From a virus, in the IMG/VR virus record IMGVR_UViG_3300036861_000805, positions 1 through 64,000 of that record: 64,000 bases of DNA; one strand, 5' to 3'. The notes under the pieces were generated by a model, which was not told the DNA's origin, did not search any database, and saw nothing but the letters and a program-made list of their open reading frames with translations. Below are positions 1 through 24,472 of the stretch, one piece after another. Position numbers and translations under genes: made by a program. Within the stretch, counting starts at the first letter, position 1, and every line of letters starts with the position of its first letter.

Positions 1-50
1 GCGCTCATCGGCGGCATGTCCACGACTTCGCCCTTTTTGCTCGCGCTCAT
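1..50 (-). CDS. N-terminus of a gene running off the window (MSASKKGEVVDMPPMSA...); candidate array-associated protein
   Basis: ATG at 50-48 overlaps the TGA of the 47..166 ORF (ATGA); open to window edge. Confidence 0.45.
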   Translation of the reverse strand, partial: MSASKKGEVVDMPPMS

Positions 51-166
51 CCCGAACACCTTTGTCGGTGTAGACAGATGAGAACAGGCTTCCCGCTCTC
101 TGCCTGCGAGACGGTTACGCCTTTCAGCACTTGCAGAATGTTGTCGGGAATCTCGGTGGTAGTCAT
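47..166 (-). CDS. 39-aa hypothetical protein directly downstream of array 1
   Basis: RBS GAAAGGAG then ATG; MTTTEIPDNILQVLKGVTVSQAESGKPVLICLHRQRCSG; translated by hand. Confidence 0.55.
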   Translation of the reverse strand: MTTTEIPDNILQVLKGVTVSQAESGKPVLICLHRQRCSG

Positions 167-176
167 GGGGCTCCTT

Positions 177-872
177 TCGATCGCTCGTACTTCACGGTTG
201 GCTCAACGGCGACGGCTCGCTCTTCCACGACGGTTGGCTCCAGATCCACGGCTCGCTCGATACTGACGGTGTTCTCAACGGCGACGGCTCGCTCCGTAGA
301 TACGGATGTCTCCCGTAGTACGGCTCGCTCTAGTTCCACGGGTGGCGCCAAGTGGGCGGCTCGCTTCCACGTCTCGGTTTGCTCAGCATCGACGGCTCGC
401 TCGGTCCTGACGGGTTGACTCTCCTTCCCCGCCTCGCTTCGCTGCTTCGGGTGACGCCAGCTTCTCGGCCTCGCTCATTCATCCCGGGCATCTCTCTGCA
501 CGCGGCTCGCTCCCAACCTTCGGTTTGCTCAACATCGACGGCTCGCTCCCAGTTCTCGGATGGCTCTGGGAGGACGGCTCGCTCGGGCGCTACGGGTGAC
601 GCGCTGATCGCGGCTCGCTCATGTACCTCGGGTGACTCCCGAAGTACGGCTCGCTCGTCATCGCCGGGTATCTCCAGCGCGTCGGCTCGCTCGCGCCGGA
701 CGGTTGTCACGCTCGATACGGCTCGCTCTTCGGAAGAGGGTGACTCGCGCAGCGCGGCTCGCTCACTCCAGACGGTTGTCACGTTTGCGACGGCTCGCTC
801 AGGGTTGATGGTGGTCTCGCTGGCTTCGACTCGCTCACCCGCCACGGGCGTCTCAATTCTCACGACTAGCGG
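177..872 (-). ncRNA. TIGR-like dual-repeat guide RNA array 1, 19 units of 36 nt
   Basis: + strand block CGGCTCGCTC (some variant) at 213,249,285,321,357,393,430,466,503,539,575,611,647,683,719,755,791,827 with degenerate ends at 177 and 863; second block CGGDTGDCTC-like midway; 8-nt variable segments between. Confidence 0.88.
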
Positions 873-1039
873 CGCCGCTCGACTGCATCTTGGAGCGCGC
901 CCAGCGCGTTCCCCAGATCGTTCGAGATAGGTTCCGGTTCGGAGGCGAGCATGGCTTCCAGAACGTCGCAGACGAGATGCTTCACTTTCCACCAGCGGTA
1001 GAGCTGGAAGCGGCGCAGGCGAAGCACCCAGTCGTTCAT
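866..1039 (-). CDS. hypothetical protein between arrays (MNDWVLRLRR...)
   Basis: ATG at 1039 overlaps stop of 1036..1317. Confidence 0.6.
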   Translation of the reverse strand: MNDWVLRLRRFQLYRWWKVKHLVCDVLEAMLASEPEPISNDLGNALGALQDAVERRR

Positions 1040-1317
1040 TCGGCGGAATCTGCGTAGTCGGCGGAGATGCCTGGCGCGGATGCAGGCTCGGCCTCCCGGA
1101 TCAGCGCCTGCTGGGAAACCATCACTGTGAAGCTGCGAGTACAAATATCCGCGCTCTCGAGAAGTACGCGCTCTTCGACGCGCACTGTGCGCGAAGACAT
1201 GAAGGTGCCTTCCGCCGGAAGCGTGTCGACGGCCGCGGAGAAGGCCTGGTCGCGGTCATCGAAGCGCTCGCCGGAGTCCTTTCCCGGCAAGATGACTTCC
1301 CAGTACGTGCGTCTCAT
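1036..1317 (-). CDS. hypothetical protein between arrays
   Basis: 93-aa ORF, RBS-like GAAAGGAAAAG upstream. Confidence 0.7.
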   Translation of the reverse strand: MRRTYWEVILPGKDSGERFDDRDQAFSAAVDTLPAEGTFMSSRTVRVEERVLLESADICTRSFTVMVSQQALIREAEPASAPGISADYADSAE

Positions 1318-2426
1318 CGCTTTTCCTTTCGCTTCGGGTCCGGGCGCACGGAGCGCTCAGGGGAGGGAATGTGGATGCGCATATGCTTGCCCTTCGGCAG
1401 TGGATGCACTTTCCCGCAGAGCTTGCATATCGTCCCCGCCGGCGCAGTGGCAAGGCAAGTGCTGCGGCGAGTCTTGGTTCGCTCCAGCGATACGGATGGC
1501 TCAGCAGGCTCGGCTCGCTCACCGAGTGCGGGTTTCTCTCCGTCTTCGGCTCGCTCGTGCGCGACGGGTGGCTCGGCGTAGGTGGCTCGCTCTTCCATGG
1601 CGGGTGGCTCTCGACCCGCGGCTTGCTCGCTTCGGACGGGTGCCTCCAGTCGCACGGCTCGCTCATTCGCGACGGATGGCTCGGCACCGGCGGCTCGCTC
1701 GCCAGGAGTGGGTGACTCTCCTTTATCGGCTCGCTCCCGTCGGCCAGGTGACTTCGCTGGTACGGCTCGCTCTCTCGTGTCGGATGCCTCACCATCGACG
1801 GCTCGCTCACTTGTCGCGGATGACTCAGCACAGACGGCTCGCTTCCGCTGGACGGGTGACTCCGCACTGACGGCTTGCTCCATAGATACGGGTGACTCCC
1901 GACGTCCGGCTCGCTCGCATGTCGCGGGTGACTCCTTTCCTTCGGCGCGCTCACAGCCTGCGGGTGACTCACTATCAGCGGCTCGCTCCTCACAGTCGGA
2001 TGACTCCTCTACTACGGCTCGCTCTGGACTCACGGATTGCTCTCGCATCCCGGCTCGCTCGGCGACCCCGGGTGATTTCTCAGCGGCGGCTTGCTCCTTA
2101 GTCTCGGACGACTCAACTTCGACGGCTCGCTCGTGCTGGAGGGATGGCTCCTGCTTCTCAACTCGCTCTTCGGCTTCGGATGCCTCGCGAAAAACGGCTC
2201 GCTCTGCTTCAACGGGTGGCTTCCTCGAGGTGGCTCGCTTGCAGGCGACGGATGACTCTCTCGGCTCGGCTCGCTCCCAATGGACGGATGACTCCGCGTC
2301 GTCGGCTTGGCTGGCCCTAGCCCCGCCCGGGGAGGCAGGGGCTAGGCCAGCTTTCTCGGGCGCGGGTGCGGCAGGTGGAGTGGGCTCCGCGCCCGATTCT
2401 TCGAGCAGATCGTCGAATTCGTTCAC
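1314..2426 (-). CDS. possible 370-aa ORF reading through array 2 (E-R-A 12-aa repeats, C-terminal CxxCxxxH)
   Basis: GTG at 2426 overlaps upstream TGA; its TGA overlaps ATG at 1317; no internal stop; may be partly a shadow of the RNA array. Confidence 0.4.
   Translation of the reverse strand: MNEFDDLLEESGAEPTPPAAPAPEKAGLAPASPGGARASQADDAESSVHWERAEPRESSVACKRATSRKPPVEAERAVFREASEAEERVEKQEPSLQHERAVEVESSETKEQAAAEKSPGVAERAGMREQSVSPERAVVEESSDCEERAADSESPAGCERAEGKESPATCERAGRRESPVSMEQAVSAESPVQRKRAVCAESSATSERAVDGEASDTRERAVPAKSPGRRERADKGESPTPGERAAGAEPSVANERAVRLEAPVRSEQAAGREPPAMEERATYAEPPVAHERAEDGEKPALGERAEPAEPSVSLERTKTRRSTCLATAPAGTICKLCGKVHPLPKGKHMRIHIPSPERSVRPDPKRKEKR
1475..2312 (-). ncRNA. TIGR-like dual-repeat guide RNA array 2, 23 units of exactly 36 nt
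   Basis: Edge block every 36 nt from 1475 to 2303 with no indel; sense consensus GAGCGAGCCG-N8-GAGTCA(C/T)CCG-N8. Confidence 0.9.
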
Positions 2427-2662
2427 CTGATCTGCCGCAGCTGGAACTTTCCATGCTGGCGCCTGAGCCATCTGATGTGTTCCAGCAGCTCCTTGACTTC
2501 CCGGTTGCGCTGTTCGGCTTCGCCGAGCATGCAGTTGAGCTTGTGCCAGCGCCAGGGTTTGTGGCGCAGCTTTTTCATCACGGGAATGGCTTGCTCGTTC
2601 TCGTGTAGAAGGGCTTGGCAATGTCTGAGCAGTCTGAGGCGTGCCTCTACGAGCTCATCCAC
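2423..2662 (-). CDS. hypothetical protein
   Basis: 79-aa ORF overlapping the RHH gene end. Confidence 0.6.
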   Translation of the reverse strand: MDELVEARLRLLRHCQALLHENEQAIPVMKKLRHKPWRWHKLNCMLGEAEQRNREVKELLEHIRWLRRQHGKFQLRQIR

Positions 2663-2840
2663 GATCGGTCTCGGCCTTGCGCACCCAGGCGTCGATCATG
2701 CTGTTCAGGATTTCCTGCATCGTGCGCCCGTCGTAGGCGAGCGCGACCTTGAGCCGGCGGTGCAGGGAGGCGGGCATGCGGAAGGTGACCTGCTGCAGGG
2801 GCTCGGTAGCGGGGGATTCAGATACCTCGGTATCGGGCAT
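2655..2840 (-). CDS. ribbon-helix-helix DNA-binding protein (ParG/CopG-like)
   Basis: QQVTFRMPASLHRRLKVALAYDGRTMQEILNSMIDAWV fits the RHH pattern; start taken at ATG 2840. Confidence 0.75.
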   Translation of the reverse strand: MPDTEVSESPATEPLQQVTFRMPASLHRRLKVALAYDGRTMQEILNSMIDAWVRKAETDRG

Positions 2841-2900
2841 TCGAGATACCGTAGCAGTTGGGTATTGAGATTTCAAGGTATCTGGGTATGTAGGGTGTTT
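2821..2900. promoter_or_regulatory. 8-bp-phased GGTAT/GATAC repeats, probable RHH operator
   Basis: GGTAT at 2829,2861,2877,2885 and GATACC at 2821,2845, all in one 8-bp phase. Confidence 0.5.
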
Positions 2901-3090
2901 GGTGGAAATATGGTGTGTGTAGAGCGGGAGTTCGCGCTCCCCCTTCAAGCGGCCGGGCTCATCGGGAGCAGCGGAGATCGAGACTGCCCAAGGCAGCATC
3001 GGGGCGCGCCGACGGCGCAGTCCCGGGAGTCGTTATCAGACTGATAACTCCAGGCCTGGAGCGGGCTGGGGAGGATTCCCTCCTAGAGAC

Positions 3091-3119
3091 TTGACAGATG
3101 ATAGGTGAGGCCTCATACT
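3091..3119 (+). promoter_or_regulatory. sigma70-type early promoter
   Basis: TTGACA-17 nt-CATACT. Confidence 0.7.
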
Positions 3120-3276
3120 AGGCAGGCAGCACGGAGCGAGCCGACTACCTTCGGGGACGAGTCCGAGGGATCTTCCCTCACTAGGAACCACCGAGGCGGG
3201 CAGACTCCAGGAACCTTGAAAACTCCAGTTCGCGAGGCTCCCACTAGGGGACTACTCCCCTGGAAACGGAGTCACA

Positions 3277-4071
3277 ATGAGCAAGACTGACGTCCTGACT
3301 GCCGAGCAGGAGACTGCCGAGCAGTCAGCACAGGCCGAGACCGAGCAGAACGAGGCACTCGTCCCGCTCGAACGGGCGATCACCTCCGACATGGAGCGGA
3401 TCGACCGTGCCGAGTCCATGGTCGGACGCCTCTTCACCCGCGTCGGCATTCGTGTAGACAAGGGTGCATTCCGCGTCTCTGACTACGGGCGCGATTGGCG
3501 AGTCTGGGCACGGCCGCTCGTGGGCCGTTCCGACTCGATCCTGTACAAGGTCCGGCAGGCGGGAGCGATCGCCCGAGTCCTCGGATTCGAGGAGACCGCG
3601 AAGCCTGAGGACCTGCCCGGCTACCTGACCCTCGTCCCCTTCTACGCGGTCATCAAGACCGCAAAGACGGACAAGGAGCGAGGGAAGGCGGAGGACAAGA
3701 TCCGCCGCGCGTGGGCGTCGCTCACGAGTGGGGGAACCTTCCCGACACAGGAGCAGGCGCAGGCGAAGGCAGACGCCATCGTCGGGCGGATCCGCCAGGC
3801 ACAGGAGAACGGTGCCGATACCGACCCCGACTCGGAGGAGACTCCGCAGTCTGGTGCGGAGGCTCAGGAGAAGGACTCCCCCGCGGAGATGGTCCGTTTG
3901 GATCCGGCCGCGGTCGAGGCCACTCGAAAGCATCTCGTCCCGTTCTTCAGGCAATGGCACAACGAGTACGGCGTGGAGGAGACCGCTGCCAAGGCGATCA
4001 TGTCTGCCACGCTGCGGCTCGTCGGGTCCGACGGACCCGGCCGGGACCTGATCGAAGCGGCGATCGGCTAA
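3277..4071 (+). CDS. hypothetical protein, first gene of the rightward arm
   Basis: 264-aa ORF, GGAG RBS. Confidence 0.8.
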   Translation: MSKTDVLTAEQETAEQSAQAETEQNEALVPLERAITSDMERIDRAESMVGRLFTRVGIRVDKGAFRVSDYGRDWRVWARPLVGRSDSILYKVRQAGAIARVLGFEETAKPEDLPGYLTLVPFYAVIKTAKTDKERGKAEDKIRRAWASLTSGGTFPTQEQAQAKADAIVGRIRQAQENGADTDPDSEETPQSGAEAQEKDSPAEMVRLDPAAVEATRKHLVPFFRQWHNEYGVEETAAKAIMSATLRLVGSDGPGRDLIEAAIG

Positions 4072-4151
4072 TGATCGTCGCCGCAGTCATCATCACGCTG
4101 TTTGCACTGATCGCGCTGCCCATGCTGGGCGTCGCGATTCTGTCCAGGTAG
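4071..4151 (+). CDS. small membrane peptide
   Basis: MIVAAVIITLFALIALPMLGVAILSR; TAATG coupling. Confidence 0.5.
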   Translation: MIVAAVIITLFALIALPMLGVAILSR

Positions 4152-4183
4152 TTCACCGAGTCTCGCGAGCGGAGTTTTCAGAC

Positions 4184-4214
4184 AGGGCCCCGGGAGACCG
4201 GGGCCCTTCTCTTT
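4184..4214 (+). terminator. intrinsic terminator
   Basis: AGGGCCCCGG-GAGA-CCGGGGCCCT followed by TCTCTTT. Confidence 0.65.
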
Positions 4215-23614: not shown

Positions 23615-24472
23615 ATGCGTGACCGGATGGTGTATCGGGATCGCATCTGCTTCGCATCGAAAGCGACACTCGCGCAAGCCGCTGGCTGCTCGACGCGCTC
23701 GGTGCAACGGGCTTGGCGCGAACTCGAGCTCTCTGGCCGCTGGGAATGTGTCAAATCCCTACCTTCTGGAAAAGCCCCCAAGACCAGGGTGTGGAGAGCC
23801 GTGTCCGAGGAGACCACCGGAATCGTCGAGCGGGCCGTGGTAACCGAGACTACCGGAGCTGTCGAGCGAGCCGCGAGATCCGAGAACACCGGAGCGTACG
23901 AGCGTTATTTTGTCTCCCGACGTACTTCGTACAGAAAACCTCAAACCCCTCGGCCTTCTGATCTCAGGATCAGCGCTAGCGAAGGACCACGGCCGAGGCG
24001 CGCGAGCGCGCCGACCATCCGCTGCGGTAGGAGGAGAAGACTCGTGGAACGACACCCAGAAAAACTCTCCGAAGGGGTGGTGCGGCGGAATGGCGAGGTA
24101 ACTCCCTGGAATGCTGGAGACGCCGTAGCTGCCACGGTGGACTTCTGCCGCACACGCGGCATACCCCTTGCTCCCTCGATCCGAGCGCGACTGGGGAAGG
24201 CAGCGAAGGCGCTGCTCGAATCAGACTTCCCTCCGAACGTCGTCGTCGCTTCCTGTGTCGTTGCGATCAGGACTGGCTGGTTCGGATCTGTGGAGACGAT
24301 CGCGCAGGAAATGGCTGTAGCTCAGGCGGGGGAGCGGATGACGCGGCAGGCCTATGTTCAGGCGATGCACGAGACATCGAGGGAGATGGAACATTCAGAG
24401 AGCGAAGTGTGGAAAACGCTACGTGAGGAAACGCAAAGACGAGCAGAGAAATCGAAAGGAGCCGAAGCATGA
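23615..24472 (+). CDS. phage replication initiator-like HTH protein
   Basis: CFASKATLAQAAGCSTRSVQRAWRELE; upstream of loader-like gene. Confidence 0.65.
   Translation: MRDRMVYRDRICFASKATLAQAAGCSTRSVQRAWRELELSGRWECVKSLPSGKAPKTRVWRAVSEETTGIVERAVVTETTGAVERAARSENTGAYERYFVSRRTSYRKPQTPRPSDLRISASEGPRPRRASAPTIRCGRRRRLVERHPEKLSEGVVRRNGEVTPWNAGDAVAATVDFCRTRGIPLAPSIRARLGKAAKALLESDFPPNVVVASCVVAIRTGWFGSVETIAQEMAVAQAGERMTRQAYVQAMHETSREMEHSESEVWKTLREETQRRAEKSKGAEA
23792..23904 (+). repeat. three-unit TIGR-like mini-array inside the initiator gene
   Basis: TGGAGAGCCG-N8-GAGACCACCG-N8-GAGCGGGCCG-N8-GAGACTACCG-N8-GAGCGAGCCG-N8-GAGAACACCG-N8-GAGCG. Confidence 0.75.

What the first reader, a model, noticed from the sequence alone, without database searches (positions are those of the whole stretch)
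1314..2426. Array 2 lies within an ORF coupled to neighbours at both ends: possible dual coding
Seen: GTG at 2426 overlaps the upstream stop (GTGA); the frame gives an ordinary N-terminus (NEFDDLLEESG...), crosses all 23 units without a stop, ends with a CKLCGKVH...H zinc-like tail, and its TGA overlaps the next ATG (1317). Inference: the array may have expanded inside a gene in 12-codon steps, and translation across it could prevent polarity on downstream genes. Caveat: with roughly 92 free codons in GC-rich DNA, absence of stops alone is only weak evidence.
Basis: partly seen in the sequence, partly recalled or inferred. Interest (0 to 1): 0.72.

Follow-up and report, generated by a model that had tools for sequence, protein, structure and literature searches.

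The report
Guide-RNA array inside a phage gene
A 23-unit array of TIGR guide-RNA repeats sits in frame inside a small phage gene whose relatives lack the array, so the same DNA appears to serve as protein code and as guide-RNA repeats, in a complete phage genome with no recognisable partner (Tas) protein.

Summary
GTG 2426 overlaps the upstream stop (GTGA), the frame crosses all 36-nt units without a stop, and its TGA overlaps the next ATG at 1317.

The array is a dual-repeat TIGR array, a kind described by Faure et al. 2025. The same repeats lie beside, and co-oriented with, a TasA-like gene in 25 of 34 IMG/VR stretches.

Three array-free proteins of 124-129 aa share the ORF's N-terminus (MxEFDDL at residue 1) and its C-terminal Cys/His block (58% identity over 40 aa). 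The array is therefore an in-frame insertion in a real gene.

Related arrays as a whole carry stops at chance frequency: 74 against 77.3±7.0 expected. They split into two groups, however. Phase-broken arrays have stops in 23 of 112 units. Phase-kept arrays have them in 2 of 62. That gives P about 0.006 for the window's 0 of 22.

Translation itself and the anti-polarity idea remain untested. The complete genome (terminal repeats, CheckV 100%) has no detectable TasA, Nop or ParB-like gene.

A 2026 preprint reports in-frame arrays only inside tas genes. This scan noted an array in an unrelated gene once before, on other DNA (e1-5901838). I class this as a new variant of a known kind.

The parts
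1314..2426 (-). Whole ORF of 370 codons: small Cys/His-tail protein gene carrying the array in its middle
   Evidence: Open frame. N- and C-terminal homology to the array-free proteins P0028, P0059 and P0064.
2277..2426 (-). N-terminal 50 codons. The GTG start overlaps the upstream stop (GTGA). The MxEFDDL motif is shared with homologs at their residue 1.
   Evidence: BLASTP gives 6 of 7 identical at residue 1 with P0064. P0065 also begins MSEFDELL. Codon-usage score 0.04, which is ambiguous.
2310..2351 (-). GC-rich hairpin inside the N-terminal coding part, just upstream of the first unit
   Evidence: RNA fold of 2290-2370: -45.1 kcal/mol, z = -3.1, and 1 of 200 shuffles folds as well. Function unknown.
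1476..2276 (-). Dual-repeat TIGR array: 22 units of 36 nt (10-nt repeat, 8-nt spacer, 10-nt repeat, 8-nt spacer) plus a terminal truncated edge repeat. Read in frame it gives E-R-A-x3-E-[SPA]-[PS]-x3.
   Evidence: The same repeats lie next to TasA genes elsewhere. No stop in this frame.
1314..1484 (-). C-terminal 56 codons plus stop: conserved block C-x9-CKxCGxVHP...IH.P. The TGA overlaps the next ATG.
   Evidence: 58% identity over 40 aa to P0028, pairwise E = 4e-14. Alignment A2. The same motif ends five other small metagenome ORFs.
2423..2662 (-). Upstream 79-aa ORF whose stop overlaps the array ORF's start
   Evidence: Codon-usage score 0.26, gene-like. No family found.
2655..2999 (-). Ribbon-helix-helix protein gene, first gene of the leftward operon
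   Evidence: Pfam RHH_10 at E = 1.5e-7, with a weak ParG match. PHROG Arc-like repressor at E = 0.002.
1036..1317 (-). Downstream 93-aa ORF, start overlapping the array ORF's stop (ATGA), with an AAGGA-type ribosome-binding site
   Evidence: Codon-usage score 0.22.
163..863 (-). Array 1: 17 units of the same kind, also free of stops in the same motif-anchored frame, but broken once by a 38-nt unit
   Evidence: 0 stops in 15 clean units against 2.1 expected, P = 0.09.
23808..23905 (+). About 2.5 units of the same pattern, in the same E-R-A frame, inside a 285-aa replication-initiator-like ORF (23615-24472)
   Evidence: PHROG replication initiation protein at E = 7e-5. Homologs P0067 and P0068 lack this segment.

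Best explanation
Array 2 is a dual-repeat TIGR array, a guide-RNA array of the TIGR-Tas kind. It sits as an in-frame insertion in the disordered middle of a small phage gene.

The ancestral gene encodes about 125 residues: an N-terminus MxEFDDL, a disordered linker, and a C-terminal Cys3-His knuckle (C-x9-CKxCGxVH). In this phage 22-23 units of 36 nt (12 codons) have accumulated in the linker, at least partly by duplication.

Two constraints act on the same DNA. One is at the nucleic-acid level and keeps the two 10-nt repeats, synonymous positions included. The other is at the reading-frame level: every unit is exactly 36 nt and there is no stop, so ribosomes that start at the GTG coupled to the upstream gene can reach the conserved C-terminal knuckle and the ATGA-coupled downstream gene.

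Shown here: the repeat anatomy, the identity of the repeats with TasA-associated arrays, the open frame, the depletion of stops, and the array-free homologs.

Inferred: that the ORF is translated; that the transcript is also used as a pre-tigRNA; and that translation keeps the operon expressed by avoiding polarity. Because this genome has no detectable Tas gene, any guide function would need a Tas protein supplied in trans.
For: 1. Anatomy. The unit is a 10-nt repeat, 8-nt spacer, 10-nt repeat, 8-nt spacer, with all spacings 36 nt. This matches the description of dual-repeat TIGR arrays (PMC12045711, sections 4 and 44).

2. Same repeats elsewhere. A pattern search found 34 IMG/VR stretches. 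A TasA-like ORF lies in 25 of the 34 loci, always on the repeat's strand. TasA was found in the whole record of 4 more.

3. Real gene. HMMER against 1.84 billion representatives gave three array-free proteins, P0028 (E = 2.3e-6), P0059 and P0064 (each just under 1e-3), that match the C-terminal tail. Pairwise identity is 58% over 40 aa, E = 4e-14. The same proteins begin MSE[FY]D at residue 1, as the window ORF does at GTG 2426.

4. Stop depletion. 0 stops in 22 units against 3.1 expected (P = 0.02-0.04), and 0 in 37 units against 5.2 (P = 0.002-0.004). The outside null gives P = 0.006.

5. The pattern recurs. Phase-kept arrays of GC >= 0.58 have a stop in 2 of 62 units, against 23 of 112 in phase-broken arrays. 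The frame is always the same one.
   - It runs into TasA in L033, L015 and L016.
   - In L034 a ParB-like ORF carries 8 units, and its TGA overlaps the tasA GTG.
   - 43 of 59 representative hits carry at least 4 phased units, and 11 of those also hold a TasA domain.

6. Nucleic-acid constraint. Third codon positions of the repeats are kept in 21-22 of 22 units. Yet CGA is only 110 of 760 Arg codons, and TCA 45 of 550 Ser codons, in this phage's genes.

7. Operon setting. There is no minus-strand terminator after either array. The junctions of the leftward operon that I read are tight: overlaps of 4 or 8 nt, and one GTG 2 nt after a stop.
Against: Codon usage does not look like that of an ordinary gene. 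The free spacer codons score -0.27, which is like a wrong frame. The flanks score 0.04 and 0.00, between real genes (0.35±0.21) and wrong frames (-0.37±0.30). GC3 in the array is 0.60, against about 0.78 in this phage's genes.

The GTG start has no Shine-Dalgarno sequence.

Because units are 36 nt, the C-terminus stays in frame automatically. Stop depletion is therefore the only statistical sign of selection on the frame, and on the window alone it is modest.

Pooled related arrays have stops at chance frequency, so an open frame is not a general property of these arrays.

Array 1 is broken by one 38-nt unit.

The exact 370-aa product is not among the gene calls of the 15-billion-protein collection.

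The homologs are metagenome predictions on contigs of at most 1.8 kb, with no context.

No Tas gene was found in this genome, so RNA-level use is not demonstrated here.
Confidence: 0.7

Rival explanations
1. The gene is dead. A TIGR array expanded inside it and destroyed its function. The frame is open only because units are 36 nt and, by luck, no spacer carries a stop. The array works, if at all, purely as RNA, and the flanks are relics.
For: Codon-usage scores of the spacers (-0.27) and flanks (0.00-0.04) are not gene-like. There is no Shine-Dalgarno sequence before the GTG. P(0 stops) for array 2 alone is only 0.02-0.04 by within-window shuffles. Array 1 already has a frame-breaking 38-nt unit.
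Against: The C-terminal block keeps all Cys and His residues and 58% identity to homologs, although the array is old enough for its spacers to have diverged. The outside null gives P = 0.006. Stop depletion goes with kept phase across independent phages. A second gene of the same genome, the initiator-like one, carries units in the same frame and is otherwise conserved.
Confidence: 0.17
2. The array is a DNA-level binding array, a centromere or iteron set, for the neighbouring ribbon-helix-helix protein or a ParB-like protein. It is not an RNA guide array.
For: A ParG/Arc-like RHH gene lies two genes upstream. ParB-like genes lie next to arrays with the same repeats in several loci. The repeats are strictly phased direct repeats.
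Against: The same repeats are flanked by TasA (Nop-type) genes, co-oriented, in 25 of 34 loci. The 36-nt dual-repeat layout with two short spacers is the published TIGR layout, and the tasParB-tasA operon is described (PMC12045711, section 44). No partition ATPase or ParB_N was found in this genome (I ran no ParA-specific search).
Confidence: 0.05
3. It is simply a protein with a 12-residue tandem repeat, and the nucleotide repeat has no role of its own.
For: The frame is open and both flanks are homologous to a real protein family.
Against: Synonymous positions of the repeat codons are as conserved as the rest, and the codons used (CGA, TCA) are rare in this phage. Variable positions show no residue preference or codon adaptation. 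Identical nucleotide repeats occur in phages of 45-72% GC, often with stops and with 37-38-nt units.
Confidence: 0.03

Closest known systems
Dual-repeat TIGR arrays of TasA / tasParB-tasA systems (Faure et al. 2025, Science, PMC12045711; I read sections 4, 5, 6, 10, 25, 44 and the figure legends)
   Same: Two alternating 10-nt repeats with two short spacers, a 36-nt unit, long arrays, and occurrence in tailed phages. Identical repeats lie beside TasA and ParB-like genes in other viral contigs.
   Different: No Tas or tasParB gene in this complete genome. No terminator after the array. The array lies inside a protein-coding gene that is not tas.
Intragenic TIGR arrays inside tas coding sequences (Xu et al. 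2026, bioRxiv 10.64898/2026.09.09.750476; I read the outline, section 5 and passages found by search)
   Same: The array lies in a coding sequence without breaking the frame, in a region expected to be disordered. I saw the same layout in TasA of L016, L033 and L015, and in 11 representative proteins.
   Different: That preprint describes arrays inside tas, mostly of the stem-loop type. Here the host gene is an unrelated small Cys/His-tail protein (with a second case in an initiator-like gene), and the array is a 23-unit dual-repeat array.
Earlier finding of this scan, e1-5901838 (another genome; an AI note, not a publication)
   Same: A TIGR array in frame inside an unrelated, apparently translated gene of a complete phage of about 83 kb.
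   Different: That phage has a Tas gene 27 kb away. This one has none detectable, and here array-free homologs of the host gene were found.
Virus-borne mini-CRISPR arrays without cas genes, and RNA anti-CRISPRs made of solitary repeats (recalled from memory; no call)
   Same: A virus carries guide-type repeats but not the effector, so the RNA must act with an effector supplied in trans, or against it.
   Different: A different system (CRISPR). Those arrays are short and, as far as I recall, not embedded in translated genes.

Membership tests
Dual-repeat TIGR array | Two distinct alternating 8-12-nt repeats separated by short (about 8-12 nt) spacers, with a unit of about 36 nt | tested here: met
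   The layout is 10-8-10-8 nt. There are 22 units plus a terminal edge, and all spacings are 36 nt. Definition taken from PMC12045711, section 4.
Dual-repeat TIGR array | Association with a tas gene (Nop-domain protein) in the same locus or genome | tested here: not met
   A TasA HMM built from 17 locus proteins gave a best E of 1.3 on all six-frame ORFs of at least 50 aa. Alignment A3, Pfam Nop and Transposase_20 gave no match in G000. The genome is complete by CheckV and has terminal repeats. A very divergent Tas cannot be excluded.
Dual-repeat TIGR array | The repeat sequence is the one used by known Tas-linked arrays | tested here: met
   The same edge and loop pattern lies next to a co-oriented TasA-like ORF in 25 of 34 IMG/VR loci. 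It also does so in 2 of 11 stretches from bacterial genomes.
Dual-repeat TIGR array | [quoted passage not shown] | tested here: inconclusive
   Each spacer is preceded by CCG and followed by GAG. The letter sets used for dual-repeat arrays are not in the text I could read, and figures and supplements were not available.
Dual-repeat TIGR array | [quoted passage not shown] | tested here: not met
   A truncated last edge repeat is present (1484-1476). The simple scan found no minus-strand terminator in 1-3400, and the frame continues into a coding tail.
Dual-repeat TIGR array | Transcription and processing into 36-nt tigRNAs bound by Tas | not testable with these tools
   No RNA run is listed for this DNA.
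Intragenic TIGR array (Xu et al. 2026) | Array inside a coding sequence without disrupting the reading frame | tested here: met
   The frame is open from GTG 2426 to TGA 1314, and both flanks are homologous to array-free proteins.
Intragenic TIGR array (Xu et al. 2026) | The host gene is tas | tested here: not met
   The host ORF's flanks match no TasA model and no Pfam family.
Intragenic TIGR array (Xu et al. 2026) | The insertion falls in a disordered region of the protein | tested here: inconclusive
   The homologs' middle parts are unalignable and rich in P, S, T and E. The ESM Atlas model of P0064 has mean pLDDT 0.41. Low confidence is only a hint of disorder.
Small Cys/His-tail protein family (P0028, P0059, P0064) | N-terminal MSE[FY]D motif and C-terminal C-x9-CKxCGxVHP...KIH.P block | tested here: met
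   Alignment A2 has invariant columns M1, E3, D5 and the Cys/His block.
Partition centromere / iteron array | Cognate partition ATPase and centromere-binding protein next to the repeats | tested here: inconclusive
   An RHH gene is present. ParB_N was not found in the genome. I ran no ParA- or ParM-specific search. The repeats' link to TasA elsewhere argues against this family.

The most novel reading that the evidence does not exclude
This complete, Tas-less phage keeps about 40 TIGR units as translated inserts in its own genes because the RNA is meant for somebody else's Tas protein. The phage may borrow a TasA from the host or a resident element to guide it against competitors. Alternatively, it may soak that TasA up as a decoy. 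In either case, Tas-dependent processing would cut the very mRNA that encodes the Cys/His-tail protein and the coupled downstream genes. The operon would then double as a sensor that switches when a Tas-bearing rival is present. More broadly, TIGR units would be able to colonise disordered linkers of unrelated genes in one fixed frame (E-R-A) and persist there.
Probability: 0.15. Interest if true: 0.85.

Novelty: new variant of a known kind. Interest (0 to 1): 0.6.

Why it matters
TIGR-Tas systems were described only in 2025, and their natural roles and the way their arrays arise are still open questions. Published catalogues search around tas genes. Arrays in Tas-less genomes, or inside unrelated genes, fall outside such a search by design.

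This case shows, with array-free homologs as a control, that a long dual-repeat array can live in frame inside an ordinary gene. It also shows that keeping the phase goes together with avoiding stops across independent phages. That points to a real link between guide-RNA arrays and translation.

It gives a concrete test bed for three questions:
- Does translation protect or compete with tigRNA maturation?
- Do arrays grow by duplication?
- Can guide arrays act in trans between mobile elements?

Tried and rejected
**Searches for close relatives, all blank.**
- blastn of 1-4200 against phages and plasmids.
- tblastn of the array ORF, the RHH protein and P0064 against phages.
- The search for related loci in viral contigs with the array ORF, the 264-aa neighbour and alignment A1.
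- A region search of the C-terminal tail among proteins of 203-648 aa.
- The scan's own index of relatives.

Neighbouring proteins are singletons in the 15-billion-protein collection.

**Pfam and PHROGs.** No family was found for the array ORF, its tail or its homologs. One weak PHROG hit to the tail (E = 0.0025) I disregard.

**ESM Atlas.** Only scores below 0.8 and TM below 0.5, so no lead.

**Rfam.** Nothing except a sub-threshold hairpin-ribozyme hit in array 1.

**Spacer targets in the phage's own genome.** No perfect 16-nt match in any of 28 geometries for 37 units, and 5 one-mismatch hits in all, which I judge to be near chance (my own rough estimate; no control was run). I did not search other genomes for targets.

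**Sequencing runs.** No RNA holder is listed. A second soil sample holds short contigs identical to the window (8 pieces listed, 0 other letters). It gives no variant with which to test frame conservation.

**Centromere reading.** This was my first guess, from the RHH and ParB-like neighbours. I dropped it once the TasA link and the TIGR papers were in hand.

**Literature.** One search was badly framed and returned unrelated papers. One search ('tigRNA' plus 'orphan') gave one general review that I did not read. 'Orphan' occurs 0 times in the two TIGR preprints I searched. I found no printed report of TIGR arrays inside non-tas genes or in Tas-less genomes. Supplements (for example Table S1 of Faure et al.) and the TIGRSafari resource were not available and may hold such cases.
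Full report
**What is there**

On the minus strand an ORF runs from GTG 2426 to TGA 1314, 370 codons. Its start overlaps the stop of a 79-aa ORF (GTGA). Its stop overlaps the ATG of a 93-aa ORF (ATGA).

Between codons 51 and 314 lie 22 complete 36-nt units and a terminal truncated repeat. Every repeat start between 1476 and 2268 is exactly 36 nt from the next.

Each unit is a 10-nt repeat (GAGCGAGCCG), 8 variable bases, a second 10-nt repeat (GAGNCAYCCG) and 8 variable bases. In the ORF's frame this reads E-R-A-x3-E-[SPA]-[PS]-x3.

**What genome this is**

The window is the first 64 kb of a single 86,757-nt virus record with a 127-nt direct terminal repeat. CheckV rates it 100% complete.

It encodes a major head protein, a terminase, a head-tail adaptor, a sliding clamp and a DNA methyltransferase. 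The head protein is at most 35% identical to those of Arthrobacter, Gordonia, Microbacterium and Mycobacterium phages; 131 records matched, none covering 80% of the query.

It has no close relative in the collections I could search. A second soil sample holds identical short contigs.

**What the array is**

A pattern made of two edge repeats and one loop repeat found 34 stretches in IMG/VR viral contigs and 11 in bacterial or archaeal genomes.

A conserved ORF of 260-300 aa lies next to the arrays. It carries the motif KG.GP..AA......I..A...S.LW.FAGL and matches Pfam Transposase_20 (IS110 family) weakly (E = 0.0015, below the cut-off). It occurs in 25 of the 34 viral loci, always on the strand of the repeat. 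Whole-record searches added 4 of the 9 remaining loci. ParB-like genes are further neighbours.

Faure et al. 2025 define TIGR arrays as two alternating 8-12-nt repeats with short spacers. [quoted passage not shown] The paper also describes tasParB-tasA operons whose arrays have 10-nt repeats (PMC12045711, sections 4, 5, 44).

Array 2 is therefore a dual-repeat TIGR array by anatomy and by repeat sequence.

**Is the ORF real?**

A HMMER search of the whole ORF against 1.84 billion representatives gave 59 hits at E <= 1e-3. Most match only the repeat part.

Three small proteins match the C-terminal tail: P0028 (124 aa), P0059 (125 aa) and P0064 (129 aa). All begin MSE[FY]D, as the window ORF begins (V/M)NEFDDL at GTG 2426.
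- C-terminal block against P0028: 23 of 40 identical, E = 4e-14.
- N-terminus against P0064: 6 of 7 identical at residue 1, E = 0.003.

In the four-way alignment the array appears as one large insertion between a conserved N-terminal motif and the block C-x9-CKxCGxVHP...IH.P.

A fourth protein, P0065, shares only the N-terminal part. Five short metagenome ORFs end in the same CKLCGKVH motif behind other N-terminal parts, one of them a ribbon-helix-helix domain.

So the start codon, the frame and the tail belong to a real, if tiny and uncharacterised, protein family. The array sits in that family's variable and probably disordered middle; the Atlas model of P0064 has pLDDT 0.41.

**Is the open frame selected?**

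Because units are 36 nt, the tail stays in frame whatever happens. The informative signal is the absence of stops.

Within the window, column shuffles expect:
- 3.1 stops in array 2 (P = 0.022; analytic 0.043);
- 2.1 stops in array 1 (P = 0.09);
- 5.2 stops in both together (P = 0.002).

Across the other loci the picture has two parts. Pooled, 307 distinct 36-nt units carry 74 stops in this frame against 77.3±7.0 expected.

The arrays nevertheless fall into two groups.
- Arrays with any spacing that is not a multiple of 3: 23 arrays, with many units of 37-38 nt. They have a stop in 68 of 247 units. Among those of GC >= 0.58 the figure is 23 of 112.
- Arrays that keep phase: 9 of 98 units overall, and 2 of 62 at GC >= 0.58.

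At the phase-broken rate, 0 of 22 has P = 0.006 and 0 of 37 has P = 0.0002. This grouping was made after seeing the data, and GC content confounds part of it. One phase-kept array, in L044, has stops at chance frequency (5 against 6.0 expected).

**In-frame arrays elsewhere**

In-frame arrays recur, always in the same frame.
- In L033 the frame runs through 16 units into TasA.
- In L015 it runs through 3 units into TasA.
- In L016 the array lies inside TasA, between two CxxC pairs.
- In L034 a ParB-like ORF carries 8 units, continues for about 45 codons, and ends in a TGA that overlaps the GTG of tasA.
- In L019 the frame's stop overlaps the ATG of the next gene.

Of the 59 representative hits, 43 carry at least 4 phased units. 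Of those 43, 11 also match my TasA model: 5 have the array internal, 5 at the N-terminus and 1 at the C-terminus. The rest have other partners, among them a Sigma70_r4 domain. These are gene-caller predictions, so they show open frames, not translation.

Xu et al. 2026 already state that arrays, mostly stem-loop and less often dual-repeat, can lie inside tas coding sequences without breaking the frame. In what I read, they do not mention other host genes.

**Two layers of constraint**

The repeats are held at the nucleotide level. Third codon positions in the repeat codons are the same in 21-22 of 22 units. The codons used are rare in this phage: CGA is 110 of 760 Arg codons and TCA is 45 of 550 Ser codons.

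The spacers show no codon adaptation. Their score is -0.27, against 0.35±0.21 for real 50-codon windows, and GC3 is about 0.5-0.6 against about 0.78.

The polypeptide is therefore best seen as a tolerated passenger whose only requirements are no stop and no frameshift. The flanks score 0.04 and 0.00, which is ambiguous.

**How the array grew**

Spacer pairs with at most 6 of 16 mismatches number 9, against 2.3±1.5 in shuffles. They include pairs between array 1 and array 2. Units are thus partly related by duplication, which fits growth in 12-codon steps.

**The operon**

The leftward operon reads, in order: RHH gene, 79-aa ORF, array ORF, 93-aa ORF, 57-aa ORF, array 1, 39-aa ORF, 68-aa ORF. 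The junctions that I read are overlaps of 4 or 8 nt, or a start within a few bases of the stop. The simple scan found no minus-strand terminator. Published arrays, by contrast, typically end in a terminator.

I could not test it.

**No Tas gene**

None of the following finds anything in the complete genome:
- my TasA HMM (best E = 1.3);
- alignment A3;
- Pfam Nop, Transposase_20 and ParB_N;
- profile HMMs of the ParB-like and other array neighbours.

The two other 100%-complete records with these repeats both have TasA. A very divergent effector cannot be excluded. Otherwise the arrays must work with a Tas supplied in trans, work against one, or be relics whose repeats have not yet decayed.

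Spacers have no perfect target in the phage's own genome.

**Verdict**

- The dual-coding reading is supported on the gene side by homologs and on the frame side by a moderate, recurrent statistical signal.
- Translation and the anti-polarity function remain inferred.
- The kind of array is known, and in-frame arrays inside tas are in a preprint. An array inside an unrelated gene was noted once before by this scan, on other DNA (e1-5901838).
- New here are the array-free homologs as a control, the link between kept phase and absence of stops, a second gene of the same genome with inserted units, and the absence of any Tas gene from a complete genome.

Noticed in passing
whole genome G000 (window 1-64000 plus 22.7 kb beyond): The phage genome is complete (127-nt terminal repeat, CheckV 100%) and carries about 40 TIGR units. 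No TasA, Nop, Transposase_20, ParB_N or tasParB-like gene is detectable. The other two complete records with the same repeats both have TasA.
   Followed up: yes
window 23808-23905 (+), in ORF 23615-24472: About 2.5 TIGR-type units lie in the same E-R-A frame inside a replication-initiator-like gene, just after its HTH. Homologs P0067 and P0068 (45-67% identical) lack about 32-38 residues there, so this too is an in-frame insertion.
   Followed up: yes
window 163-863 (-): Array 1 has 17 units and is stop-free in the motif-anchored frame. One degenerate 38-nt unit (about 440-403) shifts the frame by +2. The first part's frame ends at 330. The second part's frame is open from 474 and ends in a TGA overlapping the ATG (166) of a 39-aa ORF that has a strong AAAGGAG ribosome-binding site.
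   Followed up: partly
window 828 and 1476 (-): The last repeat of array 1's first block and the last repeat of array 2 are 648 nt apart, exactly 18 x 36. The two arrays are therefore in register across two intervening genes (chance 1 in 36). Unexplained.
   Followed up: no
window 2310-2351 (-): A strong GC-rich hairpin lies inside the N-terminal coding part, immediately before the first unit (81-nt fold -45.1 kcal/mol, z = -3.1). It has no T-run, so it is not a classical terminator.
   Followed up: partly
window 1808/402 and 1916/330 (unit starts, -): Units of array 2 and array 1 share 12 of 16 spacer bases. This points to duplication of units between the two arrays rather than independent acquisition.
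   Followed up: partly
L034:698-1606 (+) and L034:1603 onward: A ParB-like ORF (GGHH motif; no Pfam hit at E <= 0.01) carries 8 units in frame near its C-terminus. Its TGA overlaps the GTG start of tasA. This is an in-frame array in the tasParB-type partner gene, translationally coupled to tasA.
   Followed up: partly
L016:884-1984 (+); proteins P0010, P0015, P0026, P0034, P0041: In several TasA proteins the array sits at one and the same internal site (TasA profile positions about 192-206). In L016 it lies between two CxxC pairs.
   Followed up: partly
L019:976-2256 (+): A 6-unit array follows tasA in the same reading frame, separated by a single stop codon. The frame's own stop overlaps the ATG of the next gene.
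   Followed up: no
L046:115-585 (+), L047-L050: The C-terminal motif C-x9-CKLCGKVH ends several unrelated small ORFs in soil metagenome contigs. One of them sits behind a ribbon-helix-helix domain (FitA-like RHH, E = 4e-5). This suggests a small mobile Cys/His module on DNA-binding proteins.
   Followed up: partly
window 3277-4071 (+): A 264-aa protein is transcribed divergently from the array operon. It has an acidic N-terminus, no family in Pfam or PHROGs, no relatives in viral contigs, and is a singleton in the protein collection.
   Followed up: partly
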